A stretch of DNA of 64,000 nt from a virus: the IMG/VR virus record IMGVR_UViG_3300027909_000003; one strand, 5' to 3'. Made by a program: the position numbers and the translations under genes. The notes beneath the pieces are model-generated. The model was given only the letters and a program-made list of their open reading frames with translations. It had not been told where the DNA came from and ran no database searches. Positions 3,015 through 56,098 of this stretch are shown piece after piece; position 1 is the first letter of the stretch, and each line of letters begins with the position of its first letter.

Positions 3015-3052
3015 AAAGCACCTCTGAGTCTTTTCAACGACTTACGAAAATT

Positions 3053-3217
3053 GGTTTTGCGCGGTTTTGTTTTTTCGAAAAGTCAAAACCGTTTACGAAT
3101 AGCCCTAGTCACGCCCGAATAAGGAGTTACGGGTTTGGTTTTGAGGTTTTGAGGTTTTGAGGTCGGATCACCCATCACACCGGCGAGTTGCTCACGCCCT
3201 ATAGGGTACCCAAAACC
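3053..3217. repeat. Cluster of GGTTTTG iterons (5 direct, 2 inverted) with palindromes
   Basis: GGTTTTG at 3053, 3063, 3137, 3145 and 3153; CAAAACC at 3084 and 3211. Palindromes TTTTCGAAAA (3072-3081) and CCCTATAGGG (3198-3207). All lie in the intergenic gap between the primase stop and the flavoenzyme start. Confidence 0.85.
3137..3160 (+). repeat. Perfect 3 x 8-nt tandem repeat GGTTTTGA
   Basis: Read directly: ggttttga ggttttga ggttttga. Confidence 0.95.
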
Positions 3218-3219
3218 GC

Positions 3220-4983
3220 TCACTGGGCCTCCCCCTCATCGCCCTCGCCGGCCCCTACCCAGCCCTCGGCGCCCCCCTCGCCGGCCGCCGCTAGGGCTCG
3301 AGCCCGTAGCCGCCGGAGGGGGTAACAGTAGTAATTGCGTGTTGTTCCTCTGCTGCCCTCCAATCGAGTTTTCACAACCCTATGCACAAATCCCAATTCC
3401 ACAAGCGCGTGCACAGGGTTGGCAAGCGGTGGACACCTGCCTACTTTCATGTCGAAGTGCATGGAATCAGATCTGATGAACAGACATTCCTCTGGCTCGC
3501 CCCAGTCGGATAGACCCAGCGGACCATCATCAACTTTCAAGAACGATTGACCCTCAAGCACACTAGCATCCTTGAAATCAGGAGCAGCATCGGCAACTTC
3601 TGACAGATAAGACTCCAGCTCCTGTGAAGCACGCACACTTTGACCATTGCCTATGACTCGTAAGATTGAGCCAGAACGCTGCACAAGATCTCGAAAGTAA
3701 ACAGGTGGCTTGCTTGGCAAAGAGTCTACAGCAACGCGTGATCCGAGCACAAGCTCAACCCACCAATTCCATTGAAGAATCTTGCCACGACTTGTTGCCC
3801 TCACATCGCGCATTTCATTATCGCATTGGATCCTGACGTGCCAAGATCCCTCAATAGAATCAACAGCCCACAGGTCCACAATCTTCACACCACCGAGCAT
3901 CCCGGACATCGCGAGAAACCATTTAGCTCTGACGCTAGAATCAACGGTAGCAGATGAGTCCAATTCATCTGTTACCTCTTCAGCCAGAGTAATCGTCTCC
4001 TGCGAAATTCGATCACGATCATTGGCAGTCTTCGCTTTTCGAAGAATGCGTTCAAAGTAGCCAGGATCAGTTATGTGGAGTGGATCTTTGGATGTGCCAG
4101 GATCAGTAATCTCATTCAACCATTTTCGCCGATGGGTGATGATTGTGTCTACGATTTCCTGCGGAGTCCAATTCAGAGCATCAAGACGTGTGGCAAGGGA
4201 CAAATCATAGCCAGACAAGGAGTTATCCACAGGCATCTTGATCTTATGTTCCATGATCTGTGGAATTTCATGCTGGTTCGTAGCAGCAACGTGCCATTTG
4301 TCGAATGGCGGTTGTGCATCATCCCTCAAAGCAAACTCCAGGGTAACACTAGAGATGGCAGAATTGCGCGCCCGTGTCTCAACTTGCCATGACTGGAATG
4401 CAGAGGGCTCGTAGCGGATTTCTTCTTGCTGCAGGATGAAGACAGGCACAGGCTGTGCACGTTTGAAGTTGCTCGTTCCTGGCACTCGTAAGACTCGTGC
4501 CAGATCTGCAACAGCATCAAGTTCAGCCTTTGATTCAAGCCTGGCAACTTGCCTACAGTACTGAAGCCAGCCCAACTCAAGAGATGCTGCTCGGCTGTCT
4601 TTCGCAGACAACGACTCTTGAAACAACCAATGAGCGTGAATGCCACCCCCTGTTGAAACCAAGAGTGTCGGCCGGAGCGGCAGAGCGGCAATAAATCGCT
4701 GCACACCCTCAACATCATTAAAGCCCTTGGAGAAATCTAGATCTAGCCACAGGCCTGGAATTGCTAGTGCTGTATCAGTCGTTCCACGACCCTTTGGTAC
4801 ACGCGGCTGGGCCGCCATACCAAAGTAGACATCAACAGTCTTGCCAATCTCGAGAGCACGTTTTCCAGCCTTGTCGACGTCCGAGTAGAACTCAGACGAC
4901 ATTTTTCCTTCGCGCTTGATTGCTAAAACAAGATGGCCGCCTTCTGGCAGACCAACTGGCCACAATGTATGAAAGAATTCCAA
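3220..4983 (-). CDS. Archaeo-eukaryotic-type DNA primase-polymerase (AEP/prim-pol) with a large C-terminal domain
   Basis: AEP catalytic motifs in order: VYFGMA, LWLDLDF (DxD), STGGGIHAHWLF (sGxGxH), RVPGTSNFK. The last ~30 codons (…RARALAAAGEGGAEGWVGAGEGDEGEAQ) are encoded by a GC-rich island. Confidence 0.75.
   Translation of the reverse strand: MEFFHTLWPVGLPEGGHLVLAIKREGKMSSEFYSDVDKAGKRALEIGKTVDVYFGMAAQPRVPKGRGTTDTALAIPGLWLDLDFSKGFNDVEGVQRFIAALPLRPTLLVSTGGGIHAHWLFQESLSAKDSRAASLELGWLQYCRQVARLESKAELDAVADLARVLRVPGTSNFKRAQPVPVFILQQEEIRYEPSAFQSWQVETRARNSAISSVTLEFALRDDAQPPFDKWHVAATNQHEIPQIMEHKIKMPVDNSLSGYDLSLATRLDALNWTPQEIVDTIITHRRKWLNEITDPGTSKDPLHITDPGYFERILRKAKTANDRDRISQETITLAEEVTDELDSSATVDSSVRAKWFLAMSGMLGGVKIVDLWAVDSIEGSWHVRIQCDNEMRDVRATSRGKILQWNWWVELVLGSRVAVDSLPSKPPVYFRDLVQRSGSILRVIGNGQSVRASQELESYLSEVADAAPDFKDASVLEGQSFLKVDDGPLGLSDWGEPEECLFIRSDSMHFDMKVGRCPPLANPVHALVELGFVHRVVKTRLEGSRGTTRNYYCYPLRRLRARALAAAGEGGAEGWVGAGEGDEGEAQ
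3224..3322. repeat. GC-rich TA-punctuated island (family member A) forming the 3' end of the primase ORF
   Basis: Runs of G/C interrupted by cctac, gctaggg, cgtagcc and ggtaac. Composition contrasts sharply with the flanks. Confidence 0.55.
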
Positions 4984-9574: not shown

Positions 9575-9660
9575 TGAGTTGGCGGTCTCTGACCGCCGGT
9601 TTAGGGCCACCCGTTTGTCCCGGCCAGCGACAACCGCCGCCGGGCTAAGGCAACCCAAAT
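9575..9660. repeat. GC-rich island-like 5' region of the H1-like gene (weaker family member)
   Basis: Hairpin ggcggt-ctctg-accgcc plus ttaggg and ctaagg punctuations in a G/C background. Confidence 0.35.
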
Positions 9661-11953: not shown

Positions 11954-12195
11954 AACGACGATGAGCTGTTGTTGCTGTGACGCTCTGCGACGAGCAGTTG
12001 TGCGATGAGATCGTATGTGCCGCGACTCTTTGCCAGCACAGCAACAGCAATGTCGCGCTCGGGTACGTTGTGTCGCTTTGATGCTGCTGCCAGCTCATCC
12101 TTGATGCCGTCGGAGGGTGTGACGCGCAGCGTCAAGGCGCGGGACCGGGGGTTAAGGGGCCGCCCCGGGGGGCGGCGGGGGCGGGTAGGCGTCAT
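11950..12195 (-). CDS. Ribbon-helix-helix-like small DNA-binding protein (first gene of the minus-strand block)
   Basis: 81 aa. RPPGRPLNPRSRALTLRVTPSDGIKDELAAASKRHNV resembles the CopG/Arc-type RHH N-terminus. The first ~25 codons are encoded by a GC-rich island. Confidence 0.5.
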   Translation of the reverse strand: MTPTRPRRPPGRPLNPRSRALTLRVTPSDGIKDELAAASKRHNVPERDIAVAVLAKSRGTYDLIAQLLVAERHSNNSSSSL

Positions 12196-12235
12196 GGGAG
12201 CAATTATGGGGTAACCTGGGGCGGGCGCAACGCGA
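12135..12235. repeat. GC-rich TA-punctuated island (family member B)
   Basis: gggaccgggggttaaggggccgccccggggggcggcgggggcgggtagg ... ggtaacctggggcgggcgc. Confidence 0.5.
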
Positions 12236-12304
12236 GTGGTCGTAAGTCGTTGATTCTAAAGGTGCAAGTGATATGCCCGAAATGCCTCATTTTGACCGTA
12301 TAAT

Positions 12305-12387
12305 TAGGGCCGGTTGAAAACTAGGTAGCGCCGGGGCCGCCGCTAGGGCGCCCAACCCGTGAGGGTAACCGGCCCGGAGCCTAGGGG
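12305..12387. repeat. GC-rich TA-punctuated island (family member C), contains CCTAGG
   Basis: agggccgg...ctaggtagcgccggggccgccgctagggcgcccaaccc...ggtaaccggcccggagcctagggg, with CCTAGG at 12380-12385. Confidence 0.55.
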
Positions 12388-12714
12388 TCAACTACTTGCC
12401 AACTGAATAGCGGGTAAGCAGGGACGGCGGATCAGCCAGAGAGCTGCCGCAACACCGACGCGTAGGGAGCCGAGAGCGATGGCCCGGAGACGCTGGGAGC
12501 GGGTTGTGGTAAGGGGAGCAGGGGAGCGAGAGCTTGAAAGAGGCGCTGAGGCAAACTGGACGCCACCGTCAACCAGTGATCGTCTGCGAGACGAGCACAA
12601 CACCTTAACCCCCGCGCCACCCACCAGGGGTGCGAGCAACGCCAGCCGACAACCGAGTAGCCTGCGGGCACCAACAACTCGGTCGGAGCGAAACTGCTCG
12701 CACCAGTGATACTG

Positions 12715-12786
12715 GTGGCTGTGGTGAGCGCTGTGAGGACGTAACTCCTCTAGCCGCCGTGCGCGGTCAGCGCTCACCACAGCCAC
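12715..12786. repeat. Perfect 19-bp inverted repeat (gtggctgtggtgagcgctg / cagcgctcaccacagccac), 34-nt spacer
   Basis: Read directly from the sequence. Confidence 0.95.
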
Positions 12787-12825
12787 TCGGCAATCAAGCC
12801 GATGCTGTGAACGGAGAATTGGAAC
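12726..12825 (+). promoter_or_regulatory. Upstream element copy 1 (degenerate) before gene 12826
   Basis: Shares gtgagcgctg, ctcggcaatcaagcc and ggagaattggaacATG with copies 2 and 3. Confidence 0.45.
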
Positions 12826-16206: not shown

Positions 16207-16270
16207 ACGGCGCTCGGTGAAGCTAGGACCCAATGTCAGCAAAACAACACCGGCTGGCATTGGTGCCGAA

Positions 16271-16294
16271 ACGAGTGGGGCAGTTCCCACTCGT
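16271..16294 (+). other. Perfect 9-bp hairpin in a 165-nt intergenic gap
   Basis: acgagtggg-gcagtt-cccactcgt with no following T-run. This is the only sizeable gap inside the plus block. Confidence 0.6.
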
Positions 16295-16371
16295 CCGCAC
16301 AGTTGGCTACTGTGTGCTGATGAGGCAGCTACAACGACAATTTCGTCGTTGATTGATGAAGGAGAATCGCG

Positions 16372-19555: not shown

Positions 19556-19731
19556 TGGACGCTGCAGTACTGATGGCAAAGAAGGGTCACGACGCAGACA
19601 TCGGCTACACGAATGATGATGATGGTCTTCACATTTGGTGCTCTTGTGGAGAAGACATCCCCATGGGGCATGACTATGGGCTAGACACAATCATAGCAAC
19701 TTACAACAAGCACGTAGAAGAGAAGCAATGA
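19555..19731 (+). CDS. Hypothetical small protein (58 aa)
   Basis: Below the ORF-track cut-off. Manual translation: MDAAVLMAKKGHDADIGYTNDDDGLHIWCSCGEDIPMGHDYGLDTIIATYNKHVEEKQ. TGATG and ATGA overlaps at the two ends. Confidence 0.5.
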   Translation: MDAAVLMAKKGHDADIGYTNDDDGLHIWCSCGEDIPMGHDYGLDTIIATYNKHVEEKQ

Positions 19732-20501
19732 TTCACATCACTCATGACGGCTTCCACACTCTGTGTGGCATGACCCAGTTCAAAGTCGGCACAATCATCA
19801 TGGTGGCCATGGTGACACCGAAGGAAGCATTCGCTGTTGCACAGCACACAGATCACGGTGAGCATATTTTTCCCAGCGACGTCTGGTGCCAGAACTGCAT
19901 TGGCTCCATGACGGGTGACAGCCCTAGGCGCGCGGAACCGGCCCAGCCCCTACCGGCGCCCCCGCCGGCCGCCGTAGCGGGCCTACCGGCGCCGGCTATA
20001 GGCCCCGGCGCTGGCGCCCCGGTAGGCCCTACGCCCACGCGGCCGACGCCGCCCTTACCCGGCGCCCCCCTATGGCCCGCCGGCCAGCCGGCGCCCCCGC
20101 CGGGCGAGGCTTCTGTCTTGGGTGGCGTGCTGCGCTTTGTGTTCGACGAGGATTGGGGGCCAGCAGGACCTCGACTGATTGAAGTTGAGGATGGGCATGG
20201 ACGTGGCATCAATGCTGGTGAGTGGCGCCACGAGCCTCCCTACTGGGTGCTCTACATTCCAGATTCTGCGCCGGCAGAATGGCAAGCCGAAATTGAAGAG
20301 ATTCGTCGTGATGAATTTCAACGGAGAGAAGAATATCAACGAGCACTCGCGCCTTGCGCACAATTGCTGCTGAGAGCAGAAGAGCTACTCGCCAGTGCAC
20401 AGCATGGCAATGCAGACGATAAGTGGCGGCGCGATGTGAGCGACTACTTCTCTGATCACGAGCGTGGCGTTGTGATCAAGACTATCAGAGAATCTACATG
20501 A
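19728..20501 (+). CDS. Hypothetical protein with an internal Pro/Ala/Gly low-complexity insert
   Basis: 257-aa ORF. Residues ~65-128 (SPRRAEPAQPLPAPPPAAVAGLPAPAIGPGAGAPVGPTPTRPTPPLPGAPLWPAGQPAPPPGEA) are encoded by a GC-rich island. Confidence 0.6.
   Translation: MIHITHDGFHTLCGMTQFKVGTIIMVAMVTPKEAFAVAQHTDHGEHIFPSDVWCQNCIGSMTGDSPRRAEPAQPLPAPPPAAVAGLPAPAIGPGAGAPVGPTPTRPTPPLPGAPLWPAGQPAPPPGEASVLGGVLRFVFDEDWGPAGPRLIEVEDGHGRGINAGEWRHEPPYWVLYIPDSAPAEWQAEIEEIRRDEFQRREEYQRALAPCAQLLLRAEELLASAQHGNADDKWRRDVSDYFSDHERGVVIKTIREST
19918..20109. repeat. GC-rich TA-punctuated island (family member D), in frame inside a CDS
   Basis: gccctaggcgcgcgg...cccctaccgg...cgtagcgggcctaccgg...ctataggcc...ggtaggccctacgcc..., with CCTAGG at 19923-19928. 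Shares the 12-mer gccctaggcgcg with island E. Confidence 0.6.
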
Positions 20502-23326: not shown

Positions 23327-23698
23327 GTGAACGCCGCAATCCTAGTTGCCATCGCTGTCGTCGTCGCGGCTATAGTGGTCGACATAATCAGAGACGCCAC
23401 GAGGAAGCTGCCGCCAGAGCTGCCACCAGGCGACAACACATACAGCTCAGTCATGCGCCGATGCTCCATCAAGAGCTGCGGCGCCCTCTACACACACCCA
23501 AACCCGCGCGTCAAGCGCTGCGCCATCCACGCCGGCACCGCGTGCCGCTGCGGCTACGCCAAGCAGAAGTGGCAACCTGACTGCGGCAGAATCGGTGACT
23601 CAGGCGACAGCAGGGATTCTTGTGATTACGCAGTGGCGAACCGAAACAAGATGTCAAAGTCCAAAGTCGTAACCAACTTTAGAAAGGCGGCAAAATGA
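23327..23698 (+). CDS. Membrane-anchored Cys-rich small protein
   Basis: N-terminal TM segment (NAAILVAIAVVVAAIVVDII) followed by a Cys-rich region. GTG start. Confidence 0.5.
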   Translation: MNAAILVAIAVVVAAIVVDIIRDATRKLPPELPPGDNTYSSVMRRCSIKSCGALYTHPNPRVKRCAIHAGTACRCGYAKQKWQPDCGRIGDSGDSRDSCDYAVANRNKMSKSKVVTNFRKAAK

Positions 23699-24696
23699 TG
23701 CGAAGGAAAATCGTCACTCCAATCTACAGCGAGGGGAGCGAGCAACTGATGAATAGCAAGAAGTCGTACAGGTCGCCGTGGCCTCTGATCGCCATCGCGG
23801 CGTTCTTCGCGCTGCTCTCGATCTGCATGTTGGTTGCCATCGCACGAGCACAGGCGACGCTGCAGCCGACACAGGGCCACGCCGTTTACGCGCAAGGATT
23901 CAAGTGGGCGCTGTGTGTCGATCACTTCGAGGATCGACCAGTCGGGTGCGACCCATCAGTACAACGAGGTCAAGGGCTGCCCAATGCGTGTACGGGTACG
24001 GTGACGTTCTATGTCTCGCGACCGGCCAACCCTAACGCGGTGCTGGCGGACGATAGGTACGGCAAGCCGTGTAAAGGGAGTCGTGGAGGTGAGATCGCAT
24101 CGTGCGCCGATATCGAACCATGGGGAAGGTCAACTGAGAACCCATTGAACCTTGTCAACAACACGCACTGGAACTGCGACAAGAACGACCTACCCTACTT
24201 CTACAACAGTCCACAACCGTCGATACCTAGCCCCAATGCGTCTGGTAGCACAGCGTACGAGCACTATGACAGGATCGCGCGGGCATGGGCGGCGAGCCAG
24301 CAACCGCCGACTAACCCGACGCCTACGCCGACGACATCGCCTACACCGCCGCCAAACGTCTGCCTGACCGGGCAGTGTATACCTGAGTGCCCGCAGAACT
24401 GCCCGCCAGCGACTACGCCATCGCCATCGCTGCCACCACCGCAACCAACCCCTACGGCGACCCCTGTGACGACACCGCCAACGGTAGTCTGCCCTTCACC
24501 TACACCGTGCCCGGCTTGCCCCCAGCCATTGCCGTGTCCTGTGTTCGACGCCATGCCGGCAAAGGTGCGTGCGACGATCAACAGGGGCTTGAACCAGATC
24601 GGCAAGGGGCACGCGGCAGACAGGGACGCGGCGAAAGCGTGGATGGCAGCACACCCGGATATCAGGACGCCGAGAAGCAGTGGCGGTGGACAGTGA
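23695..24696 (+). CDS. Secreted or membrane-anchored protein with a Cys-rich domain and Pro/Thr-rich linkers
   Basis: Signal anchor WPLIAIAAFFALLSICMLVAIARAQA, 10+ Cys, and PTNPTPTPTTSPTPPPN and PPPQPTPTATPVTTPPT tracts. Confidence 0.65.
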   Translation: MMRRKIVTPIYSEGSEQLMNSKKSYRSPWPLIAIAAFFALLSICMLVAIARAQATLQPTQGHAVYAQGFKWALCVDHFEDRPVGCDPSVQRGQGLPNACTGTVTFYVSRPANPNAVLADDRYGKPCKGSRGGEIASCADIEPWGRSTENPLNLVNNTHWNCDKNDLPYFYNSPQPSIPSPNASGSTAYEHYDRIARAWAASQQPPTNPTPTPTTSPTPPPNVCLTGQCIPECPQNCPPATTPSPSLPPPQPTPTATPVTTPPTVVCPSPTPCPACPQPLPCPVFDAMPAKVRATINRGLNQIGKGHAADRDAAKAWMAAHPDIRTPRSSGGGQ

Positions 24697-25231
24697 GCGC
24701 CTCGGCGCGGGGCCGGGGGTGCGCGCCGTGAGCCATCCAGTATTCGCGCTGCCGAAGCGAGCGCGCTACGTGGACGCCGAGAGCAACGCCGGCATGGTGA
24801 TCTGCGTCAGCGGCGCCGTGCTGGCTGGCCCGCTCGGCTGGGTCGGCCCGCTCGTGGCGGCCCTAGGCGTCCTGATCGTCGCGCACGCGAACGAGCGGTG
24901 GTGGCTGTGGTATCGAGCTGCCAACCGCGCAGTTCGTGAGGCCACGCCCGCCTCGCCGAAGGGAGGGCCGAATAGCCCGCCCGCGCTTCCGTCTCAAGAG
25001 CGGGAGCTAATCGAGTTGATGTTCAGGTGCTTCGACGCACTGCGCCGCGCGGGCTGGATGGATGCCATGTACGCGCCGAGAGATGGGAGCGAATTGGAAG
25101 TGATCGAAGCGGGGTCAACCGGGATTCACAAGGCCACGCGAGACGGCATGGGGGCCTTTTGGGTCGCTGACGAGTTCGACCTTTGGCCATCGCGACCGGT
25201 GCTCTTCAGAGCGAAGGCAAAGTCAACTTGA
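24680..25231 (+). CDS. Hypothetical membrane protein (start uncertain)
   Basis: Two hydrophobic segments (GMVICVSGAVLAGPLGWVGPLVAALGVLIVAHA). GC-rich; alternative GTG starts at 24686 and 24728. Confidence 0.45.
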   Translation: MAVDSERLGAGPGVRAVSHPVFALPKRARYVDAESNAGMVICVSGAVLAGPLGWVGPLVAALGVLIVAHANERWWLWYRAANRAVREATPASPKGGPNSPPALPSQERELIELMFRCFDALRRAGWMDAMYAPRDGSELEVIEAGSTGIHKATRDGMGAFWVADEFDLWPSRPVLFRAKAKST

Positions 25232-25245
25232 GGCCCCAGGCCGGC

Positions 25246-25665
25246 ATGCTGTCCGACTCCCGCGCCAACGAAATGTCGAGACACTGGAGCAAGCAAGCGA
25301 TGAGCGACGAGTACACACTGCACGATGCCCTGCGCGCGAGCGCCGGTCTGCCGCCGAAGAAGCCAGAGGCGAGCGCGCCCGCACTGACCGCCGCCCGCCG
25401 CGAGGAGCTGATCGCAACCATCGAGGAGTGGGCGCACAACTTCCCCGACGGCAGCCAGCGGCCGATCACGCGCGAGGAGCTGCACGCGGCGCTGCTGGCG
25501 CACCGTGAGCTCTCGCGCGAGGGCGAGCGCGAGCCGGCGAGTAGCGGGCAGATCCAAACGGCGTGGTGGCGAAGTAACGCGTGTAGTCCTGAAAGGGCAT
25601 TCACCGAAGGCGCCCGCTGGGCCGAGTCTCGCCTGGGCGTCGGCGCGAAGGAGCCGCGCTCGTGA
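25246..25665 (+). CDS. Hypothetical protein (GC-rich block)
   Basis: ORF 25183..25665 trimmed to ATG at 25246. The plus strand is preferred because of the chain of coupled starts downstream. Confidence 0.45.
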   Translation: MLSDSRANEMSRHWSKQAMSDEYTLHDALRASAGLPPKKPEASAPALTAARREELIATIEEWAHNFPDGSQRPITREELHAALLAHRELSREGEREPASSGQIQTAWWRSNACSPERAFTEGARWAESRLGVGAKEPRS

Positions 25666-26264
25666 GCGAGCAAGAAAAGGGGCTGTGGTGGTGCTGCGCC
25701 GCTGAGTTCGGCCACCACGAATCGGCATGTCCCAACTACGAACCCGAGCCGAGCGAGCCCCACAAGCAGCCCGCCCCGCCCGTGAGCGAGGCGCGCGAGG
25801 GCGGCAGCCCGCTTGCTCAACTCGACCACCACGGCACCGAGTGGCGGCTGATCCCCTGGGACCAGCACTTCACAGGTGACCCGACATGGCAGGTACGAGA
25901 CACTGTACATCGCGACCGCTGGCACGACCGCTACCGCGCCGACGGGAACCACGTAGAGCTCGCCCGCCAGCTCGCCGCCGTCACGGCTGAGCGGGACGCG
26001 CTGCGCAGTGCGTTGCTCGGCGTAGAGGAGTTGCACTTCCGTGAAGGCGAGAATGCCAACGCTCGATTCGAGCGCATCGGCGAGGTGTTCTATCGCGAGA
26101 CAGGCTACCTACGACCAGGGAAGAGCGAGTCGCCGCATACGTGGCACCCCGGAAAAGACGAAGAGCGCGAGGCGGCCTTCACAGACTGGACGAAGAAGAG
26201 AATCAACGCTGCCCGTGCCGCCCTGGCCGCCCCCGCTGCCGCCGGGCGAGAGGAGGGCGAATGA
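25662..26264 (+). CDS. Hypothetical protein (GC-rich block)
   Basis: 200-aa ORF with a GTGA overlap. Confidence 0.5.
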   Translation: MSEQEKGLWWCCAAEFGHHESACPNYEPEPSEPHKQPAPPVSEAREGGSPLAQLDHHGTEWRLIPWDQHFTGDPTWQVRDTVHRDRWHDRYRADGNHVELARQLAAVTAERDALRSALLGVEELHFREGENANARFERIGEVFYRETGYLRPGKSESPHTWHPGKDEEREAAFTDWTKKRINAARAALAAPAAAGREEGE

Positions 26265-26839
26265 GCGAGCTTGCACGCTGGAGCGAAGGCCGACTCGTTG
26301 CCACCGACGACACCGGAGCGGTTCTCTCGCGCTTTGGGGGCTGTGCTGGCTACGCGCCCGCGCACGACGCCTGCGAACTATGGGAAGCCATCATTCATCT
26401 TGACGCCACCGTTAGAGAGCGGGAAGCCACCATCGCCGCCCACGAGGCCGAGCTTGCGCGCGTGCGTGCCGCCGTCCCGCCAACGAGCCTGGACTACACG
26501 ATGCCGCCCGACGAGTGGATCGGGTGGCTGACGCAACGGGTGGCGTGGCTGGAAGGCAAGATCGACTCGATTGTGACGGCACAAGACGCCGCGCGCGAGG
26601 CGATGCGTTGCAGCTACGCCGACGAAGGGCGCAGCGTCGCCGCCATCGTTGAACTGGTCAAGGGTCCGGTTGCGAAGCGCGACGAAGCGATAGAGATGGC
26701 CAGAGCAGCTGTGCGAGGCGATACGACCACCGCGCCCGGCGAGCGGCGCGGCGAGGGGGCGAAACGAAATGAGCGAATCCGTATTCGAGGAACGCATGAG
26801 ACTCAAGAGAGCGTGCGGTACTTGGAACCGCAGCCATGA
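26261..26839 (+). CDS. Hypothetical protein (GC-rich block)
   Basis: ORF 26141..26839 trimmed to ATG at 26261 (aggaggg upstream, ATGA overlap): MSELARWSEGRLVATDD... Confidence 0.5.
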   Translation: MSELARWSEGRLVATDDTGAVLSRFGGCAGYAPAHDACELWEAIIHLDATVREREATIAAHEAELARVRAAVPPTSLDYTMPPDEWIGWLTQRVAWLEGKIDSIVTAQDAAREAMRCSYADEGRSVAAIVELVKGPVAKRDEAIEMARAAVRGDTTTAPGERRGEGAKRNERIRIRGTHETQESVRYLEPQP

Positions 26840-26868
26840 GCGCGACCCGCCACGAGCGCGACCGCCAC
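26838..26868 (+). repeat. Imperfect tandem duplication gagcgcgac(c)cgccac x2
   Basis: Read directly; lies in the 57-nt gap before gene 26897. Confidence 0.8.
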
Positions 26869-26896
26869 GGCGTGCCCGTAGACGACAGGAGACCAC

Positions 26897-27097
26897 ATGA
26901 CCACCGATAGCACCGAGCGCCTCGCCGGCATCCGCGCCGAGCGACGCGCACTCGATCACTCGCTCACCGACCACGGCGACCAGCGAGCCTTTCAAGCCGA
27001 GTGTTCGGTGTGCGGTCGCGTCGTCGCAGTCGGTTACCCACACACCAGCAAGGACGGAAGAGGATTGTGCCCAGTTGGTCAGAAAGAGGTGATATGA
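26897..27097 (+). CDS. Hypothetical small protein
   Basis: 66 aa, with aggag 6 nt upstream of the ATG. Confidence 0.5.
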   Translation: MTTDSTERLAGIRAERRALDHSLTDHGDQRAFQAECSVCGRVVAVGYPHTSKDGRGLCPVGQKEVI

Positions 27098-27987
27098 AGA
27101 AGTCAAATGATGGCAAGGCGCACGGAATAAATGTTCACATCGCTATGGAGTGGTTGCTGAACATAGTATTCCTCCGCAAGCAAGTTACCACTCCGCAACC
27201 ACAAGTCGAAGTTGTAGATCCTGGACACTTCGGCGGCGGCTCGCCGAACATGAAGTTGCTCTACAGTCTGCTCTGGTATGCGTGGGCATGGCTCACAGAC
27301 TCGCGCAACATGTCTGTGCATCGTGAGCGCATGCGGCGCATCATCAACCGTGAAAGAAGTTTCTACGGAAATGTCGAGCCAACCACAAGCTCACACGGTC
27401 AGCTTTGGCTCGCTGTAATGACAGGCGCGCTCTATGTCGCGCTCCAATGCGAACACGATGATGTACGTGATGAAGCTGTGTGGTGGCTTCGCATCGATCA
27501 TGCAATCCACTGGGTCACAGAGGCTGATGGCGCCATGTGGGCCCCAGGAGGACGCTGCACAGACAAGCCCAAGAACATGGGCGGTAAGCTACTCGGCAGC
27601 AACCCAACAAGGCCAAAGTACCTGCAAGCCTTACAGACTGGCAAGACCAAAGGCAAGGCCAATCAGTACGACATCGGAGCATGGTTCATGACGCGTGTAC
27701 CGCAGGCCTGGCGGGAAGAAATTCAGCGTTGGCCTCAGTCATTCCCACCCATGGCTGGTGGGTTTCACGCTCGTCGCTATGCCAATGGAGACTTCATAGC
27801 TTGGTATGAAGATCTGGAAGGTGTAGCAGACACCACATATGCAACAGGAAGATTTGAAGGAGCCCTTTGGATCAGTGAATCGCCCATAGACGACGACGAC
27901 AAGAACCACCACATCAATCTACTCGACGCACATGAGGGTGAGACCCCAGAGCTGTCAATCGATGCACCTGCTGCAGTAACCGCCTAA
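27094..27987 (+). CDS. Hypothetical protein (297 aa), last gene of the plus block
   Basis: ORF 27001..27987 trimmed to ATG at 27094 (ATGA overlap). No recognisable domain. Confidence 0.6.
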   Translation: MKKSNDGKAHGINVHIAMEWLLNIVFLRKQVTTPQPQVEVVDPGHFGGGSPNMKLLYSLLWYAWAWLTDSRNMSVHRERMRRIINRERSFYGNVEPTTSSHGQLWLAVMTGALYVALQCEHDDVRDEAVWWLRIDHAIHWVTEADGAMWAPGGRCTDKPKNMGGKLLGSNPTRPKYLQALQTGKTKGKANQYDIGAWFMTRVPQAWREEIQRWPQSFPPMAGGFHARRYANGDFIAWYEDLEGVADTTYATGRFEGALWISESPIDDDDKNHHINLLDAHEGETPELSIDAPAAVTA

Positions 27988-28233
27988 CCCCCCTGCCAGG
28001 ACCCCCCTAACCGCCGCCCTAACCGGCCCCCGCCTAGGGAGCCTACGGTCGCCGCCGGGCGGCCCCTAGGCCCTACGGGGGCCGGTTAGCGGCCCCTACC
28101 GGGCGCCCTAGGCGCGTAACGTGGCCGCCGGGCCTACTAGCGCCGGTTCTACGGGCCTAGGGGGCCCGCCCCCCGCCTCCCCTTTACCGCGCCCGCCCGC
28201 CCCTACTCCTCGCCGGCCGGCCGCCGGCCGCTC
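27985..28233. repeat. GC-rich TA-punctuated island (family member E), convergent intergenic region
   Basis: About 250 nt with no ORF. Four CCTAGG sites (28033, 28065, 28107, 28156) plus cctaac, cctacgg, ggttagc, cctacc, cctactag and ccctact punctuations. Shares ggcgcgtaac and cccctaggcc with island F. Confidence 0.7.
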
Positions 28234-28890
28234 TTAGCCGCCCGGCGGGAGCTGCGCAGAGGCAGGCCACTCAGCACGACCCTCGAATGCCTCGCGCAGT
28301 TGTGTAGTGCCTAGCCCAAGAGCAAGTTGATAGTGTGGCTGATCGCCAAGATCACCCGGCCAGTCCCCGCCCCACTCCACACCCGCCGGTTTCCAAATTC
28401 CCCCTAGCCTACCATAGTCGTCGTCGTGGCGATCCTCACGATCGAACGTGAGGTATGTGCCATCGGCAGCAAACAATCCAAGATCCCACGCAATGCCGAA
28501 GTTGTGTCGGCTCTGCCCACCGCGCGCATTAGTCACCACGCCTTTTCGCGTCTTGCGGTTACCAATAGCGTACAGCGCATCTTGTTCGGCATAGGTCCGG
28601 GTCCCGCCGACCACACGCGGATGCAAGCCAGCAGCGTGCACAGCGAGCAGGCAGGCACGCGCCTGCTTGTGGGCTACCGGCAGTAACGTGCGCAGCAATG
28701 GCGTAGTGCGGCCGCCCCACTCAGCGAAGGCGAACGATCGAGCTACTGCATTGTGCTGAGTGTCCCAGGCTAGCTCCGCCGCATAGGTCTTCGGACCGAA
28801 CACGCCGTCCAGCTTGCCAGTGTACAGTCCTGCGGCGCGGTAATAGCGCTGGTCGCTAAGCACTTGCGCCGGCAGCAATGGCGCGCTCAC
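28234..28890 (-). CDS. Endolysin: peptidoglycan-binding domain plus M15-family zinc peptidase (VanY or L-Ala-D-Glu peptidase type)
   Basis: PG_binding_1-like YYRAAGLYTGKLDGVFGPKTYAAELAW. M15 motifs RTYAEQDALY, SRHNFGIAWDL (H-x6-D), WGGDW and DQPHYQL. Confidence 0.85.
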   Translation of the reverse strand: MSAPLLPAQVLSDQRYYRAAGLYTGKLDGVFGPKTYAAELAWDTQHNAVARSFAFAEWGGRTTPLLRTLLPVAHKQARACLLAVHAAGLHPRVVGGTRTYAEQDALYAIGNRKTRKGVVTNARGGQSRHNFGIAWDLGLFAADGTYLTFDREDRHDDDYGRLGGIWKPAGVEWGGDWPGDLGDQPHYQLALGLGTTQLREAFEGRAEWPASAQLPPGG

Positions 28891-29138
28891 TCACCGTCTC
28901 CTGGCGGCCGCTCGCCCACGTCGGGCAACTCCTCTGCATTGATGCGCACGATCTCAGTTTCGATCTCCTCTCGCGTCATTGTTTCAATCTTGTCACCGTG
29001 CTTAGCGATCATTCGATCCGCAGTCGACGAGGCCAGCTCGAAAGCCGTCGCGGCGAGCGGCCCACCGTAGACGCCGACGGCGACCTGGAGCAGAGCCTTG
29101 AGTTTGGGGTCGAGAGTCTTCACGATTTGCTCCTCCAC
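28887..29138 (-). CDS. Hypothetical small protein (lysis cassette)
   Basis: 83-aa ORF with an ATGA-type overlap to the endolysin. Confidence 0.45.
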   Translation of the reverse strand: MEEQIVKTLDPKLKALLQVAVGVYGGPLAATAFELASSTADRMIAKHGDKIETMTREEIETEIVRINAEELPDVGERPPGDGE

Positions 29139-29494
29139 GGCGTCGCCTCTGCCAGCTGCGCGAGCAGCGCGTCCAGCTGCGCCGACAGTGCCAGGACCTC
29201 GGTGGCGTCAGTTTCGTCGTTGGTCAGGTAGTTCTCCAGCGCGAGGCCGGCGGCCACGACCACTGGCTTCATCACACGCAGGACAGTGCGCGCCTTGTCG
29301 AGCTTGTCCTCACTGACGGCGTGCGCTGCGCTGGCCGCGTCGACAGCCTTGACGGCATCCTTGTAGATGCTGCGGGCAGTGGTAATGGTGATGAGCGCCT
29401 TTTGCTCTGTGCTGAGATGATGGCGCGGAGCCTCGGCGCAGGCGGCAGCCAGGAGAGCCACCGCGAGGAGTGGAGCGAGAGAGCGCAGCTTCAA
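29120..29494 (-). CDS. Lipoprotein (possible outer-membrane spanin component)
   Basis: MKLRSLAPLLAVALLAAAC has a lipobox LAAC. The rest is helical and Ala-rich. Confidence 0.6.
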   Translation of the reverse strand: MKLRSLAPLLAVALLAAACAEAPRHHLSTEQKALITITTARSIYKDAVKAVDAASAAHAVSEDKLDKARTVLRVMKPVVVAAGLALENYLTNDETDATEVLALSAQLDALLAQLAEATPWRSKS

Positions 29495-29784
29495 GGCCTC
29501 TCCTCCTTGGCCGCCTCGACCTTGGCGATATCGGCGTTGGTCATACTGGCGGCTTTGGCGAGCGTCGGCTCGCTGAGCTTGACAGCAGGGACCACATTGT
29601 CCCTGGTTGCGACTGTGCCGGCACCGGCGATAGCCAGTAGGATGATATCAAGGAAGGTCTTCCACTCCGCTGCGATGTCGACGCCATACTTGTGCAGCGT
29701 GACGCCGAGCGCGATGAGGAAAGCGTCGAGCAAGCGCGTCGCGAGAACCGGCTGTCGCTTGACCCAGTCTGTAAGCCACTTCAT
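29491..29784 (-). CDS. Holin-like small membrane protein
   Basis: 97 aa with two hydrophobic segments (LLDAFLIALGVTL; FLDIILLAIAGAGTVA) and a charged C-terminus. Lies next to the endolysin. Confidence 0.5.
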   Translation of the reverse strand: MKWLTDWVKRQPVLATRLLDAFLIALGVTLHKYGVDIAAEWKTFLDIILLAIAGAGTVATRDNVVPAVKLSEPTLAKAASMTNADIAKVEAAKEERP

Positions 29785-30242
29785 TACCTCTCCTTCTCGA
29801 TTGTTGGCAATGCTTCATCAACCTTAGCCGCCAGCTTCTCGATTGCCTTGCCGCGATTACCAGCCTGCTCAGTCTGAATCTGCACCCTCCCAGCCAGATC
29901 AGCTAGCCGCTGATCGATTCTGGCAGCCCTGTCGCGATCCTCCTCGTCTCTCTTCTCCATTGTGCCTGCTTTACCTTCCAGCAACTTTAAGGAAGCTTCG
30001 ATTCTGCCAATAACATCGTGCAGTGATGTGCCCTTGTTAGGCCGGAACTGTTCTGCTATTTCGTTGAGCGTTGAGAACACTCCTGGTGTGTCCTCAAATT
30101 GTTTCACCATCTGTATTAGTAGAGGCAGCAAACGATTGTGGAGCGTAATGAGCATGGCGATTGGACGCACCAGCTTAGTCCAAATGATTCCTGAGGCTAC
30201 TATCAATGTAGATGCCAGTACGATCCCTTCGACCAAATGCAT
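29784..30242 (-). CDS. N-terminal TM plus coiled-coil protein (possible inner-membrane spanin or holin partner)
   Basis: ORF 29784..30398 trimmed to ATG at 30242 (MHLVEGIVLASTLIVASGIIW...), then a long charged helical region. Confidence 0.5.
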   Translation of the reverse strand: MHLVEGIVLASTLIVASGIIWTKLVRPIAMLITLHNRLLPLLIQMVKQFEDTPGVFSTLNEIAEQFRPNKGTSLHDVIGRIEASLKLLEGKAGTMEKRDEEDRDRAARIDQRLADLAGRVQIQTEQAGNRGKAIEKLAAKVDEALPTIEKER

Positions 30243-50686: not shown

Positions 50687-50714
50687 CTCAGGTTCTCCTT
50701 GCGCTCTGGCGCGG

Positions 50715-51149
50715 TTAGAGGATAATCACAACGAGGCGGTCGCCGCCAGCAGCACTCGACGGAGACTTGTCGTATGCAGCACGTGCGATGGGCTTGGTGG
50801 TACCAGCCTTCAGGCGCCCGGCACCGTCCGACTCCAGCTCAGCACCATCAACGAAGGTGCTGCCCGAGTCGACGATGGCATTGACGCGTTCCCCAGTCTT
50901 GAAGAAGCCGGCCTTGATGTAATCGAGCGCAGCGTATGCCACGTCGATGCCCTGGCCAAGCTCATCGCGCTCCAGCGCGAACCAGGGACCAGCAGCGCCA
51001 GACGCCGTGGCATGCTTGCGCCACTTGCCGGCGTTGACCTCGATGAGATGGCCAGGCGTGATCGCAGCGCTGGCCTGCTTCTGCTCGTCGACATTCGGCT
51101 CGCCGCGCACTGCGATGACGCGGCTGCCGGTCTTTTCGCTTCCAGCCAT
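50715..51149 (-). CDS. Head decoration / DUF2190-like protein
   Basis: 144 aa between the scaffold and the capsid gene; Gly/Ala-rich beta-type sequence. Confidence 0.45.
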   Translation of the reverse strand: MAGSEKTGSRVIAVRGEPNVDEQKQASAAITPGHLIEVNAGKWRKHATASGAAGPWFALERDELGQGIDVAYAALDYIKAGFFKTGERVNAIVDSGSTFVDGAELESDGAGRLKAGTTKPIARAAYDKSPSSAAGGDRLVVIIL

Positions 51150-51185
51150 GGTTATTGTTCTCCTTGTACTTTCTTGTCGTTTTTC

Positions 51186-53505: not shown

Positions 53506-53720
53506 TCTTGCTTGAAGATTGCGAAGATCAGGTAATCAGGAGTGTTGTCTGAATAGCGCTCAAACTTCATCTGCCAAGATTCGAGCACTCGGCCTTGCTG
53601 GCGATGCTCCGAGATGGCCGTCTGGAAGTTTGATGCAAGCTCAATGTCGTAGCCGCCGCCTATCAAGACAACCACCTGAGAACCAATAGCAAGCAGTCCG
53701 CCGACGTGATCGCTCGCCAC
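53493..53720 (-). CDS. Hypothetical small protein
   Basis: 75-aa ORF that starts at the portal stop. Confidence 0.4.
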   Translation of the reverse strand: MASDHVGGLLAIGSQVVVLIGGGYDIELASNFQTAISEHRQQGRVLESWQMKFERYSDNTPDYLIFAIFKQEWTP

Positions 53721-55918: not shown

Positions 55919-56098
55919 CCTTGCCGGGCTCCACTTCCTCGGTGGGAGTCCTGGGCCGGTCCCCGCGCGCCGGGGACGGGGCGGCCGGCGCGTAACAGCC
56001 GCCCCTAGGCCGCTAAGTATGGGGCCAACGGGGCGGGGGCCAACGCGGGTGGGCCTAAGTCGCTGAGGCTACGGGCGGTTCCCACCCGCCGTCGGGGA
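55919..56098. repeat. GC-rich TA-punctuated island (family member F) between a small ORF and the portal gene, running into the small ORF's 3' end
   Basis: ggccggtccccgcgcgccggggacggggcggccggcgcgtaacagccgcccctaggccgctaag...ggcctaagtcgctgaggctacgggcgg, with CCTAGG at 56004-56009. Confidence 0.6.

What the first reader, a model, noticed from the sequence alone, without database searches (positions are those of the whole stretch)
27985..28233. Family of dispersed, extremely GC-rich, TA-punctuated, CCTAGG-studded islands in a moderate-GC phage
At least seven short segments are almost pure G/C, interrupted mainly by isolated TA dinucleotides in contexts such as CCTAGG, CCTAC, CGTAG, GGTAA and GGTTAG. 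They are 3224-3322, 12135-12235, 12305-12387, 19918-20109, 27985-28233, 55919-56098 and, more weakly, 9575-9660.

The islands share exact sub-strings:
- gccctaggcgcg (19921 and 28105)
- ggcgcgtaac (28111 and 55988)
- cccctaggcc (28063 and 56002)

Seven of the roughly ten CCTAGG palindromes I noticed in 64 kb fall inside these ~900 nt.

The positions are non-random. Islands mark both strand-switch regions that bound the plus-strand block, the gap before the portal gene, two ORF 3' ends, one ORF 5' end, and one site in frame inside an ORF.

Possible explanations:
- a selfish GC-cluster-type miniature mobile element, analogous to GC clusters of yeast mitochondrial DNA
- an array of binding sites for a phage or host protein (nucleoid, partition or packaging)
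- boundary or terminator elements
- recombination scars from a high-GC donor

I know of no described phage element with this signature.
Basis: seen in the sequence. Interest (0 to 1): 0.7.

Follow-up and report, generated by a model that had tools for sequence, protein, structure and literature searches.

The report
TA-punctuated GC-rich islands at phage gene junctions
An uncultivated 65-kb phage carries six short, related, roughly 80% G+C segments at gene junctions in which A and T occur almost only as the pair TA; the pattern is real and found nowhere else searched, but its function is unknown.

Summary
Six segments (83-300 nt, 71-80% G+C) sit in a 54.5% G+C phage genome of about 64.9 kb.

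- **TA signature:** A and T occur almost only as TA (43 seen, 10.9 expected). The contexts are CTAG, CTAC and CTAA, never GTAC. Seven of the 11 CCTAGG sites lie in 1.4% of the window.
- **Not an artefact:** independent assemblies carry the sequence unchanged.
- **Position:** the islands sit at gene or module junctions (permutation p about 0.005) and have sharp edges.
- **Relatedness:** they resemble each other beyond composition. They share 9-15-mers, and one 32-nt block is 25/32 identical.
- **Coding:** where ORFs run through them, they override codon usage.
- **Absent features:** folding beyond composition, helical periodicity, tandem structure and terminal repeats.
- **No counterpart** in 50,697 phage genomes or PLSDB plasmids. 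The tested shared blocks are also absent from IMG/VR, JGI metagenomes and 185,579 species genomes.

Best reading (about 0.35): a paralogous family of non-coding GC-rich junction inserts that multiplied within this genome and survive only where they do no harm. Main rivals are functional transcription-unit boundary elements (0.25) and arrays of protein-binding sites (0.13). No known family passes its membership test. Function and the cause of the TA signature remain unproven.

The parts
27976..28275 (.). Island i28, the largest. It fills the 246-nt gap between the convergent genes 27094-27987 (+) and endolysin 28234-28890 (-). It supplies both stop codons and about 8 extra C-terminal residues of the endolysin.
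   Evidence: 78-80% G+C with 18 TA and 4 CCTAGG. Identical in three other assemblies. The endolysin tail is absent from 9 homologues. Fold z-scores are -0.73 and +0.84.
19909..20136 (.). Island i19. It is read in frame as a 76-residue Pro/Ala-rich linker inside ORF 19728-20501 (+).
   Evidence: 80% G+C with 10 TA. Within the island, Leu is 4/4 CTA or TTA, Val 2/2 GTA and Ile 1/1 ATA, and GC3 is 0.79 against 0.56 genome-wide. The domain that begins right after the island (residues about 135-195) starts at residue 2-8 of many stand-alone small proteins, and residues 200-255 match other stand-alone proteins.
3216..3328 (.). Island i3. It encodes the last 36 or so residues of the primase-polymerase-like gene 3220-4983 (-).
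   Evidence: 79% G+C with 4 TA. The tail reads RRLRARALAAAGEGGAEGWVGAGEGDEGEAQ*. Positions 3227-3258 share a 32-nt block with 28175-28206 (25/32 identical, same spacing). The alignment scores z = 3.9 against shuffles.
12115..12202 (.). Island i12a. It lies at the 5' end of the first leftward gene, 11950-12195 (-), at the divergent strand switch.
   Evidence: 78% G+C. It encodes the Pro/Arg-rich N-terminal 19 residues MTPTRPRRPPGRPLNPRS, or lies in the 5' UTR if the TTG start is the one used. It is followed by the conserved 60-nt element.
12305..12387 (.). Island i12b, inside the 630-nt divergent intergenic region 12196-12825.
   Evidence: 71% G+C with 6 TA and 3 CTAG. It shares the exact 15-mer GGCCGCCGCTAGGGC with i3. 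It also aligns in three blocks, inverted, with 28063-28116; that pair alone is only marginal (z = 1.9).
55919..56018 (.). Island i56, in the gap between ORF 56055-56300 (-) and the portal start at 55918 (-).
   Evidence: 77% G+C, in a 136-nt non-coding gap. In the nearest relative (L006) and in Xanthomonas phage PBR31, terminase and portal overlap with no gap.
9575..9660 (.). Weak candidate only.
   Evidence: It lies in a 129-nt gap of 62% G+C. It holds 2 TA (TTAG, CTAA) and does not pass the island scan.
12205..12265 (+). Conserved element next to i12a (TATGGGG...GCAACGCG.GTGG.CGTAAGTCGTTGA). It is associated with the islands but is not one of them.
   Evidence: It aligns with 56018-56078 at about 70% over 95 nt. 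The core CGTAAGTCGTTGA gives 6 matches at up to 2 mismatches against 1.1 expected.
56018..56078 (+). Second copy of the conserved element, next to i56.
3030..3075 (-). Partial third copy of the conserved element, about 150 nt downstream of i3 and just upstream of the start of gene 2097-3014 (-).
   Evidence: (I6).

Best explanation
The islands are a small family of related, non-coding, GC-rich junction inserts.

**Proposed mechanism (inferred)**
- Pieces of one island were copied into other places of the same genome, in either orientation.
- The most likely route is illegitimate recombination or replication template switching at the very stable G/C microhomologies the islands share, such as CGCCGGCCGCCG, TAACCGGCCC and CCCTAGGC.
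- In a genome that is 94% coding, copies survive only where they break nothing: between genes, at gene ends, or between protein modules.
- Where one reading frame happens to stay open, the island is translated as a Pro/Ala/Gly/Arg-rich tail or linker.
- Elsewhere its dense TAG/TAA (CTA/TTA) content ends the neighbouring ORF within a few codons.
- On this reading the islands are selfish or neutral DNA, analogous to yeast mitochondrial GC clusters. Any insulating or terminating effect is secondary.

**Shown**
- The compositional anomaly and the TA signature.
- Relatedness between islands.
- Junction positions and sharp edges.
- ORFs running into the islands with abnormal codon use.
- Absence from other genomes.

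**Inferred**
- The copying mechanism, the direction of events (insertion rather than in-situ evolution), and the lack of function.
- The cause of the TA punctuation is not explained by this model.
For: **Relatedness beyond composition**
- Summed pairwise local-alignment scores have z = 4.2, with 0 of 200 dinucleotide shuffles reaching the observed value.
- Shared 10-mers number 56, against 17 +/- 6 in shuffles.
- The excess persists when every TA and its flanks are held fixed: 56 against 14-22.
- Positions 3227-3258 and 28175-28206 share GCCTCCCC-N16-GCCCCTAC at 25/32 identity with identical spacing. i3 and i12b share an exact 15-mer. i28 aligns piecewise with i3, i12b and i19 in both orientations.

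**DNA-level feature, indifferent to coding**
- Codon use inside i19 and i3 contradicts the genome's usage.

**ORFs run on into the islands**
- The endolysin has about 8 extra residues compared with 9 homologues.
- The primase has a 36-residue low-complexity tail.
- The first leftward gene has a Pro/Arg-rich N-terminus.
- ORF 19728-20501 joins modules that are stand-alone proteins elsewhere, and the island lies exactly at the joint.

**Extra DNA relative to kin**
- Terminase and portal overlap in L006 and PBR31 but are 383 nt apart here.

**Position and shape**
- Junction-only positions (p = 0.005 and 0.001).
- Abrupt composition steps at the edges.
- No consistent orientation or G/C skew relative to transcription.
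Against: - No defined unit: nhmmer finds only the pair used to build the model.
- No terminal inverted repeats or target duplications were seen at the edges, though I checked these only by eye.
- No transposase or RAYT appears among the called genes (Pfam lists).
- No empty-site or presence/absence variant exists in the data. All copies of the phage are identical, and the nearest relative is only 54% identical in the portal protein.
- An element confined to a single genome is unusual.
- Neutral 80% G+C DNA should decay in a 54.5% G+C genome, so the islands must be young or maintained.
- Two islands sit directly beside a conserved promoter-like element, and two sit at the only strand switches. 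That pattern also fits a function.
- The TA signature is unexplained.
Confidence: 0.35

Rival explanations
1. The islands are functional boundary elements of transcription units. Very GC-rich DNA, and the massively self-paired RNA made from it, would act through composition rather than a specific fold. They would pause or stop RNA polymerase, protect mRNA 3' ends, or insulate neighbouring operons. The dense stop codons would unload ribosomes before the structured stretch.
For: - Islands occupy both strand-switch regions (12.1-12.4 kb divergent, 28.0-28.3 kb convergent). They also occupy the start of the structural operon (portal) and the end of the primase gene ahead of an iteron-bearing gap.
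- i12a and i56 lie immediately beside a conserved element. Read on the minus strand, that element resembles TTGSSC-N16-CATAMT upstream of the first leftward gene and of the portal gene (the promoter reading is my inference).
- Absolute folding energies are very large, -134 to -148 kcal/mol for 256 nt.
- Maintenance of 80% G+C in a 54.5% genome suggests constraint.
- The window shows no excess of canonical terminators that could otherwise do this job.
Against: - Three islands lie inside translated ORFs.
- Folding is no better than shuffles.
- The scan flags only one weak hairpin-plus-T site, at the 3' edge of i19.
- There is no consistent strand asymmetry relative to transcription.
- Stop-codon selection fails as an explanation. 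TGA is the phage's main stop (61 of 96 genes), yet TGA and TCA are at expectation in the islands while TAG and CTA are 5-8 times enriched.
Confidence: 0.25
2. The islands are arrays of binding sites for a phage or host DNA-binding protein. The protein would recognise short CTAG- or CCTAC-centred cores in a G/C frame (CCCTAGGS, CCTACSGG) and assemble a nucleoprotein complex at operon boundaries, for regulation, nucleoid organisation or packaging.
For: - Core words are strongly concentrated in the islands: CCCTAGGC 7 copies against 1 outside, CCTACSGG 5 of 6, CCTAGG 7 of 11, ACCGGCCC 6 against 0.
- The cores occur in both orientations and in variable numbers, as in some repressor arrays.
- A small DNA-binding-like gene starts at i12a (its fold class is not verified).
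Against: - Spacing between cores is irregular (2-38 nt), with no helical periodicity.
- There is no dyad symmetry between neighbouring TAs.
- Sequence sharing extends well beyond any plausible site length.
- Sites inside ORFs are hard to reconcile with this role.
- Pfam and PHROGs recognise neither candidate protein.
Confidence: 0.13
3. The islands are recombination hotspots at module junctions, driven to high G+C by GC-biased repair of heteroduplex DNA. TA would survive because T:G mismatch repair works poorly in a TpA context.
For: - Positions are at module junctions.
- TG and CA are depleted while TA is retained.
- The genome is compositionally mosaic, with 62-72% G+C blocks at 23.4-29.8 kb and 50-51.6 kb.
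Against: - The edges are abrupt rather than graded.
- Biased repair does not explain shared 12-15-mers and the 32-nt block between distant islands.
- TC and GA are depleted as well.
- There is no comparative evidence for recombination at these sites.
Confidence: 0.07
4. The islands are pieces of foreign high-GC DNA from a host or another phage, left behind by recombination.
For: - The relatives found are 67-70% G+C.
- Part of the capsid region is 73% identical at DNA level to the high-GC relative L006.
Against: - BLAST against 50,697 phages and PLSDB gives no significant match.
- The shared blocks are absent from IMG/VR, JGI metagenomes and 185,579 species genomes.
- High-GC phage DNA rarely reaches 4 TA per 80 nt. 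Where it does, the TA contexts are ordinary, with 28% RTAY including 12 GTAC.
- 80% G+C exceeds any donor genome average.
Confidence: 0.05
5. The islands are ordinary low-complexity coding sequence, namely Pro/Ala/Gly-rich linkers and tails and their decayed remains.
For: - i19, i3 and i12a are translated as P/A/G/R-rich segments.
- A homologue with a similar architecture also has a low-complexity linker before the same domain (P0148).
Against: - About half of the island bases are non-coding, with stops in all six frames.
- Third codon positions and the choice of CTA, GTA and ATA contradict the phage's codon usage.
- The same words occur in both orientations.
Confidence: 0.05

Closest known systems
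Yeast mitochondrial GC clusters (e.g. GC42; PMC4478555)
   Same: Both are short GC-rich segments that contrast with the composition of a compact genome. Both lie mostly between genes, occur in both orientations, and are related to one another. 'Merger and shuffling' of pieces has been proposed for the clusters, and a selfish or neutral nature is likely.
   Different: - GC42 has a 42-nt consensus, a hairpin under constraint, an AG target duplication, and presence/absence polymorphism across strains.
- Here there is no unit consensus, no hairpin signal, no duplication seen and no polymorphism data.
- The background is 54% G+C rather than AT-rich, and the TA punctuation has no counterpart.
REP/BIME/REPIN elements mobilised by RAYT transposases (from my own knowledge)
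   Same: Both are GC-rich extragenic sequences at gene ends and between convergent genes. The GTAG/CTAC tetranucleotide is prominent (16 of 50 TA contexts). Clusters occur in alternating orientation.
   Different: - REPs are imperfect palindromes present in tens to hundreds of copies on the host chromosome, with a RAYT gene.
- Here palindromy does not exceed shuffles and no RAYT is encoded.
- The shared blocks are absent from 185,579 species genomes.
Rickettsia palindromic elements inserted in frame into ORFs (from my own knowledge)
   Same: Both are short non-coding-type repeats that are tolerated inside protein-coding genes and translated as extra peptide segments.
   Different: RPEs are conserved 100-150-nt palindromic units found in many copies. 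The phage islands have no such unit.
Dispersed regulatory repeats of phages, such as mycobacteriophage stoperators and start-associated sequences, or PeSLs of T4-like phages (from my own knowledge)
   Same: Both are repeated short sequences at gene boundaries of a phage genome.
   Different: Those are discrete motifs or stem-loops of fixed length with a consistent orientation. The islands are 83-300 nt, defined by composition, irregular, and partly translated.
Hairpin terminators flanked by stop codons, TAG-stem-loop-stem-CTA, between convergent phage genes
   Same: The local pattern GTAGGGGCCG-loop-CGGCCCCTAC occurs once in i28. It also occurs as a single hairpin between convergent genes in other phages (L014, L015, L011).
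   Different: Those are single 25-30-nt hairpins, whereas the islands are ten times longer. The terminator-type scan flags only one weak hairpin-plus-T site, at the edge of i19, and none in the other islands.
12-nt tandem repeats encoding (A/D)AA(R/W) tetrapeptides in other viral contigs
   Same: These are also GC-rich, CTAG-studded stretches of 100-260 nt in 50-58% G+C phages. They share the 15-mer GGCCGCCGCTAGGGC with i3 and i12b.
   Different: Those are strictly periodic (12 nt) and coding. The islands have no tandem period and are half non-coding.

Membership tests
Yeast-type GC clusters | A conserved unit consensus of 30-60 nt shared by the copies | tested here: not met
   A profile built from the best pair finds no further copy. 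Only 9-15-mers and one 32-nt block are shared.
Yeast-type GC clusters | Hairpin secondary structure under constraint | tested here: not met
   Fold z-scores lie between -0.8 and +0.8 for all islands on both strands.
Yeast-type GC clusters | Target-site duplication and presence/absence polymorphism | not testable with these tools
   The contigs fetched for the phage are identical across the islands. The nearest relative is 54% identical in the portal protein. No duplication was seen by eye at the edges.
REP/BIME/REPIN | A GTAG/CTAC head next to an imperfect palindrome | tested here: inconclusive
   GTAG and CTAC are enriched, and one perfect example exists at about 28079-28101. Palindromy overall does not exceed shuffles.
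REP/BIME/REPIN | Many copies on a bacterial chromosome, with a RAYT gene | tested here: not met
   Two conserved-block patterns give 0 hits in 185,579 species genomes. No Y1-transposase family appears in the Pfam lists of the called genes. These exact-pattern scans would miss diverged copies.
MITEs | Terminal inverted repeats and target-site duplications around a unit of fixed length | tested here: not met
   Island lengths range from 83 to 300 nt. Self-inverted similarity is weak (z <= 2.9). No flanking duplications were seen by eye in the sequence.
Intrinsic terminators | A G+C-rich hairpin followed by a T run | tested here: not met
   The scan lists one weak site (5-bp stem, 20124-20136) at the 3' edge of i19 and none in the other islands. 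Totals equal the shuffle expectation. T makes up 11% of island bases.
Protein-binding site arrays (operator or stoperator type) | A discrete motif of fixed length with regular spacing or dyad symmetry | tested here: inconclusive
   The cores CCCTAGGS and CCTACSGG are enriched. Spacing is irregular and there is no dyad symmetry. Binding itself was not tested.
Structured RNA families (Rfam) | A match to a covariance model | tested here: not met
   The only gathering-level hit in the window is a hammerhead ribozyme at 16264-16334, outside the islands.

The most novel reading that the evidence does not exclude
The islands are a previously undescribed class of phage-borne micro-elements defined by composition. 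They are G/C runs joined by TA, mostly as CTAG, CTAC or CTAA. They multiply within a genome and settle at gene junctions, where they can fuse or extend genes. Alternatively, they form a new kind of nucleoprotein or transcription boundary that works through composition plus TA hinges rather than through a fixed motif.
Probability: 0.25. Interest if true: 0.7.

Novelty: new variant of a known kind. Interest (0 to 1): 0.5.

Why it matters
Phage genomes are tightly packed, and dispersed non-coding repeat families in them are rare. When present, such repeats usually mark regulation or recombination.

- **If the islands are selfish inserts,** they show a way in which phage genes acquire tails and linkers, and in which separate genes become fused. 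ORF 19728-20501 looks like such a fusion.
- **If they are functional,** they would be a boundary element that works by composition, which gene finders and motif tools do not see.
- **Either way,** the TA-only use of A and T, which overrides codon usage, points to a DNA-level rule that none of the mechanisms considered here explains.

The case rests on one genome, so its generality is unknown.

Tried and rejected
- **Assembly artefact.** Rejected: independent assemblies carry the same sequence.
- **Structured RNA or terminator.** Rfam gives nothing in the islands. Folding equals shuffles on both strands. The terminator scan lists one weak site at the edge of i19 and none in the other islands.
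- **G-quadruplex motifs.** They are present in only some islands and absent from the largest.
- **Helical (10-11 bp) periodicity of TA, as in nucleosome-positioning DNA.** Not seen.
- **Dyad symmetry between neighbouring TAs.** Below the null.
- **Degenerate tandem repeat.** TRF finds only small GCCG-type (4-8-nt) runs at the edges of i28 and i19.
- **Stop-codon selection.** Rejected because TGA and TCA are not enriched, although TGA is the main stop.
- **Decay of a purer GC tract.** This would give a TG/CA excess, and the opposite is seen.
- **Recoded TAG gene.** The TAs fall in all frames.
- **Host REP or foreign donor.** There are no significant matches in phages or plasmids, and none of the tested blocks occurs in IMG/VR, JGI metagenomes or GTDB genomes. 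The hits to GTAGGGGCCG-N5-CGGCCCC are ordinary single hairpins. The hits to the 15-mer are mostly a 12-nt coding tandem repeat or random GC-rich DNA.
- **Comparative genomics.** The portal, terminase, endolysin and ORF257 searches found no relative closer than 54-56% identity, so presence/absence could not be scored.
- **Primase C-terminus comparison.** Only the N-terminal domain has homologues.
- **Inverted pair i12b / i28 flanking the plus-strand block.** This would suggest an old inversion, but that pair alone is not significant (z = 1.9), so I do not build on it.
- **Resemblances to the lambda cos overhang and the phiKMV nick consensus.** I noticed these by eye and treat them as chance.
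Full report
**What the window is**

The window is 64,000 bases of an uncultivated tailed phage.
- It encodes a Terminase_3 large terminase (56302-57693, minus strand), a portal protein (53720-55918), a DnaE-type polymerase (59705-62560), a UvrD-like helicase, an SNF2-related helicase and a primase-polymerase-like protein, an M15 endolysin (28234-28890), and a 1566-residue tape-measure protein.
- The same sequence occurs as two 65,077-bp k141 contigs in ENA (ERZ27257771, ERZ27257663) and as Logan contigs from SRR5582993 and SRR5689928.
- The contig ends overlap the two ends of the window, which implies a circular or terminally redundant genome of about 64.9 kb.
- All copies are identical to the window except three SNPs, none of them in an island.
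- Island 27950-28270 is identical base for base in three other contigs. The islands are therefore not assembly or chimera artefacts.

The two classes separate cleanly on TA content.
- The six islands (903 nt pooled) hold 43 TA against 10.9 expected from their base composition.
- TG, CA, GA and TC are each about half of expectation, and AT is 0.37.
- The coding high-GC controls hold 3 TA in 595 nt.

The TA contexts are also skewed.
- CTAC 11, CTAG 11, CTAA 6, GTAG 5, GTAA 5, TTAG 4.
- Purine-TA-pyrimidine contexts are 1 of 50, against 28% in the whole window.
- GTAC has 167 copies in the window and none in an island.

Short words concentrate in the islands.
- Seven of 11 CCTAGG sites lie in the islands, which make up 1.4% of the window.
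- CCCTAGGC: 7 inside, 1 outside. ACCGGCCC: 6 inside, 0 outside. CCTACSGG: 5 of 6 inside.

A detector for at least 74% G+C and at least 4 TA per 80 nt flags five regions in this window.
- In the non-tandem background windows checked, the TA contexts are ordinary, with 28% RTAY including 12 GTAC.

The motif content differs from that of other GC-rich stretches.

**Where the islands lie**

Using the gene calls attached to the public contigs:
- **i28 (27976-28275)** fills the 246-nt gap between two convergent genes. It supplies both stop codons.
- **i12a (12115-12202) and i12b (12305-12387)** lie at the divergent strand switch. i12a covers the first 19 or so codons, or the 5' UTR, of the first leftward gene. 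i12b lies inside a 630-nt gap with no called gene.
- **i56 (55919-56018)** lies in the 136-nt gap before the portal gene.
- **i3 (3216-3328)** encodes the last 36 or so residues of the primase-like protein.
- **i19 (19909-20136)** is read in frame inside ORF 19728-20501.

Random placement gives five or more boundary-overlapping islands in 0.5% of trials. It gives 49% or more non-coding island bases in 0.1% of trials. The segment at 9575-9660 is at most a weak member.

**The 'in-frame' island is also at a junction**

A full HMMER search of 1.84 billion representative proteins with ORF 19728-20501 shows three things.
- Residues about 135-195 form a domain that starts at residue 2-8 of many stand-alone proteins of 55-160 residues.
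- Residues 200-255 match other stand-alone proteins of 67-89 residues.
- Residues 1-60 have no relatives.

The island encodes residues 61-136, which is exactly the joint before the first recognisable module. The ORF therefore looks like a fusion in which the island serves as linker.

**The islands are a DNA-level feature, not a product of coding**

- Genome-wide, Leu is CTA or TTA 12% of the time, Val is GTA 14%, Ile is ATA 9%, and GC3 is 0.56.
- Inside i19, all four Leu are CTA or TTA, both Val are GTA, the one Ile is ATA, and GC3 is 0.79.
- Also inside i19, Pro and Ala never use the A-ending codons that are commonest elsewhere.
- The island-encoded tail of the primase shows the same habit.
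- The endolysin carries about 8 extra C-terminal residues (ASAQLPPGG) that nine homologues lack.

ORFs therefore run into sequence whose make-up ignores them.

**The islands are related to each other**

- The sum of best pairwise local alignments exceeds all 200 dinucleotide-preserving shuffles (z = 4.2).
- Shared 10-mers between different islands number 56, against 17 +/- 6.
- The excess remains when each TA with up to 3 flanking bases is held in place and only the G/C runs are shuffled.

Concrete matches:
- 3227-3258 and 28175-28206 share GCCTCCCC-N16-GCCCCTAC with 25 of 32 identities and identical spacing.
- i3 and i12b share the exact 15-mer GGCCGCCGCTAGGGC.
- i12b aligns, inverted, with 28063-28116 in three blocks (CTAGGGCGCCC, TAACCGGCCC, GCCTAGGGG).
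- CGCCGGCCGCCG occurs in four islands.

There is, however, no common unit. A profile of the best pair finds nothing else. i28 reads as a mosaic of pieces that resemble parts of the others.

**What the islands are not**

- **Not a structured RNA.** There is no Rfam match. Folding energy does not exceed that of shuffles for any island on either strand.
- **Not symmetric or periodic.** Self-inverted similarity is weak, with z at most 2.9. Neighbouring TAs show no dyad symmetry. There is no 10-11-bp periodicity. TRF finds no tandem structure beyond small GCCG-type runs at the edges of i28 and i19.
- **Not terminators or quadruplex sites.** The terminator scan lists one weak site at the 3' edge of i19 and none in the other islands. 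G-quadruplex motifs occur in only some islands.
- **Not shaped by stop-codon selection.** TGA is the phage's main stop (61 of 96 genes), yet TGA and TCA sit at expectation while TAG and CTA are 5-8-fold enriched.
- **Not a decayed purer G/C tract.** Decay by C-to-T change would enrich TG and CA, and the opposite is seen.

**Nothing similar elsewhere**

- BLAST of the islands against 50,697 phage genomes and against PLSDB plasmids gives no significant match.
- Two patterns built from the blocks conserved between islands give zero hits in genome contigs and metagenome contigs. One of them also gives zero in viral contigs.
- A REP-like hairpin pattern taken from i28 hits only ordinary single hairpins between genes of other phages.
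- The shared 15-mer hits a different object, 12-nt tandem repeats encoding (A/D)AA(R/W), or random GC-rich DNA.

Comparative genomics is not possible at present.
- The nearest portal is 54% identical, the nearest terminase 56% and the nearest endolysin 56%. ORF257 has no full-length relative.
- One informative point remains. In the nearest relative (L006) and in Xanthomonas phage PBR31, terminase and portal overlap. Here they are 383 nt apart, and the gap is filled by an 81-residue ORF and island i56.

**Interpretation**

The evidence that discriminates best points one way:
- relatedness without a unit;
- both orientations;
- sharp edges;
- indifference to coding;
- ORFs that run on into the islands;
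- positions limited to the few places where extra DNA is harmless in a 94%-coding genome.

That is what one expects of sequence that was copied around the genome and filtered by selection, as proposed for yeast mitochondrial GC clusters (PMC4478555). I therefore rank 'paralogous junction inserts, selfish or neutral' first, at about 0.35.

Several things argue against it or leave it open.
- There is no terminal repeat, target duplication, mobilising enzyme or presence/absence variant.
- An 80% G+C tract should not persist neutrally in a 54.5% genome.
- The TA rule is left unexplained.

The main rival (0.25) is a functional boundary element that works through composition.
- Supporting it: islands occupy both strand switches, and i12a and i56 adjoin a conserved 60-nt element. 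Read on the minus strand, that element resembles a -35/-10 promoter in front of the first leftward gene and of the portal gene. That promoter reading is my inference.
- Against it: three islands lie within ORFs, and there is no structural or strand signal.

The remaining readings rank lower.
- A protein-binding array (0.13) fits the enriched CTAG and CCTAC cores but not the irregular spacing or the long shared words.
- GC-biased repair, foreign high-GC scraps and plain low-complexity coding each explain part of the picture and fail on specific tests (see rival explanations).

**Comparison with known systems and novelty**

The islands work most like GC clusters or REP-type extragenic repeats, but they fail the defining features of each family that could be tested (membership table). 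No phage element with this signature turned up in the collections or papers I could search. I file them as a new variant of the known kind 'dispersed GC-rich junction repeats', on the evidence of a single genome.

Noticed in passing
window 16264-16334 (+): Rfam gathering-level match to the type II hammerhead ribozyme (RF02276; 39.9 bits against a cut-off of 37; E = 1.2e-4). It lies in a 165-nt gap between called genes.
   Followed up: no
window 12205-12265 (+), 56018-56078 (+), partial copy at 3030-3075 (-): A conserved element of about 60 nt (TATGGGG..GGGGCGGG.GCAACGCG.GTGG.CGTAAGTCGTTGA) lies next to islands i12a and i56 and about 150 nt downstream of i3. Read on the minus strand, the two full copies resemble TTGSSC-N16-CATAMT upstream of the first leftward gene and of the portal gene. 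A shortened pattern gave only unrelated hits in IMG/VR.
   Followed up: partly
window 12390-12825 (+): A 436-nt stretch with no called gene, between island i12b and the first plus-strand gene. It folds much better than shuffles (-190.6 against -166.6 +/- 6.7 kcal/mol; z = -3.6; 0 of 100 shuffles), including a long near-perfect hairpin at about 12705-12785. There is no Rfam match. It may be a structured leader or non-coding RNA.
   Followed up: partly
window 3137-3163: Three and a half perfect copies of an 8-nt unit (GGTTTTGA, or CCTCAAAA on the minus strand). They lie in the 205-nt gap just downstream of the primase-like gene. They look like iterons and could mark a replication origin.
   Followed up: no
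window 19728-20501 (+): The 257-residue ORF is a three-module fusion. Residues 135-195 and 200-255 each match different stand-alone small proteins in other genomes.
   Followed up: partly
window 53720-55918 (-): The portal protein is 732 residues, against about 560 in its relatives. It carries a C-terminal match to the 2'-5' RNA ligase superfamily (PF13563; residues 603-691).
   Followed up: no
window 23400-29800 and 50000-51600: These blocks are 62-72% G+C in a 54.5% genome. Positions 49659-50434 are 73% identical at DNA level to the 68% G+C relative L006. The genome is compositionally mosaic.
   Followed up: no
L102 5325-5584, L078 4649-4796, L050 4869-5946, L092, L094, L065, L053, L066, L088, L090, L099: Many IMG/VR contigs of 50-64% G+C carry 100-260-nt arrays of a 12-nt unit (GCCGCCGCTAGG / GATGCCGCTTGG). 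The unit encodes (A/D)AA(R/W) tetrapeptide repeats. At first glance these arrays mimic CTAG-studded GC islands.
   Followed up: partly
window 1-1600 and 62700-64000, plus L007 and L009: A cluster of ThyX, carbamoyltransferase, HAD phosphatase, exonucleases and several methyl- and glycosyltransferases. This hints at DNA or surface-sugar modification. I did not examine it further.
   Followed up: no
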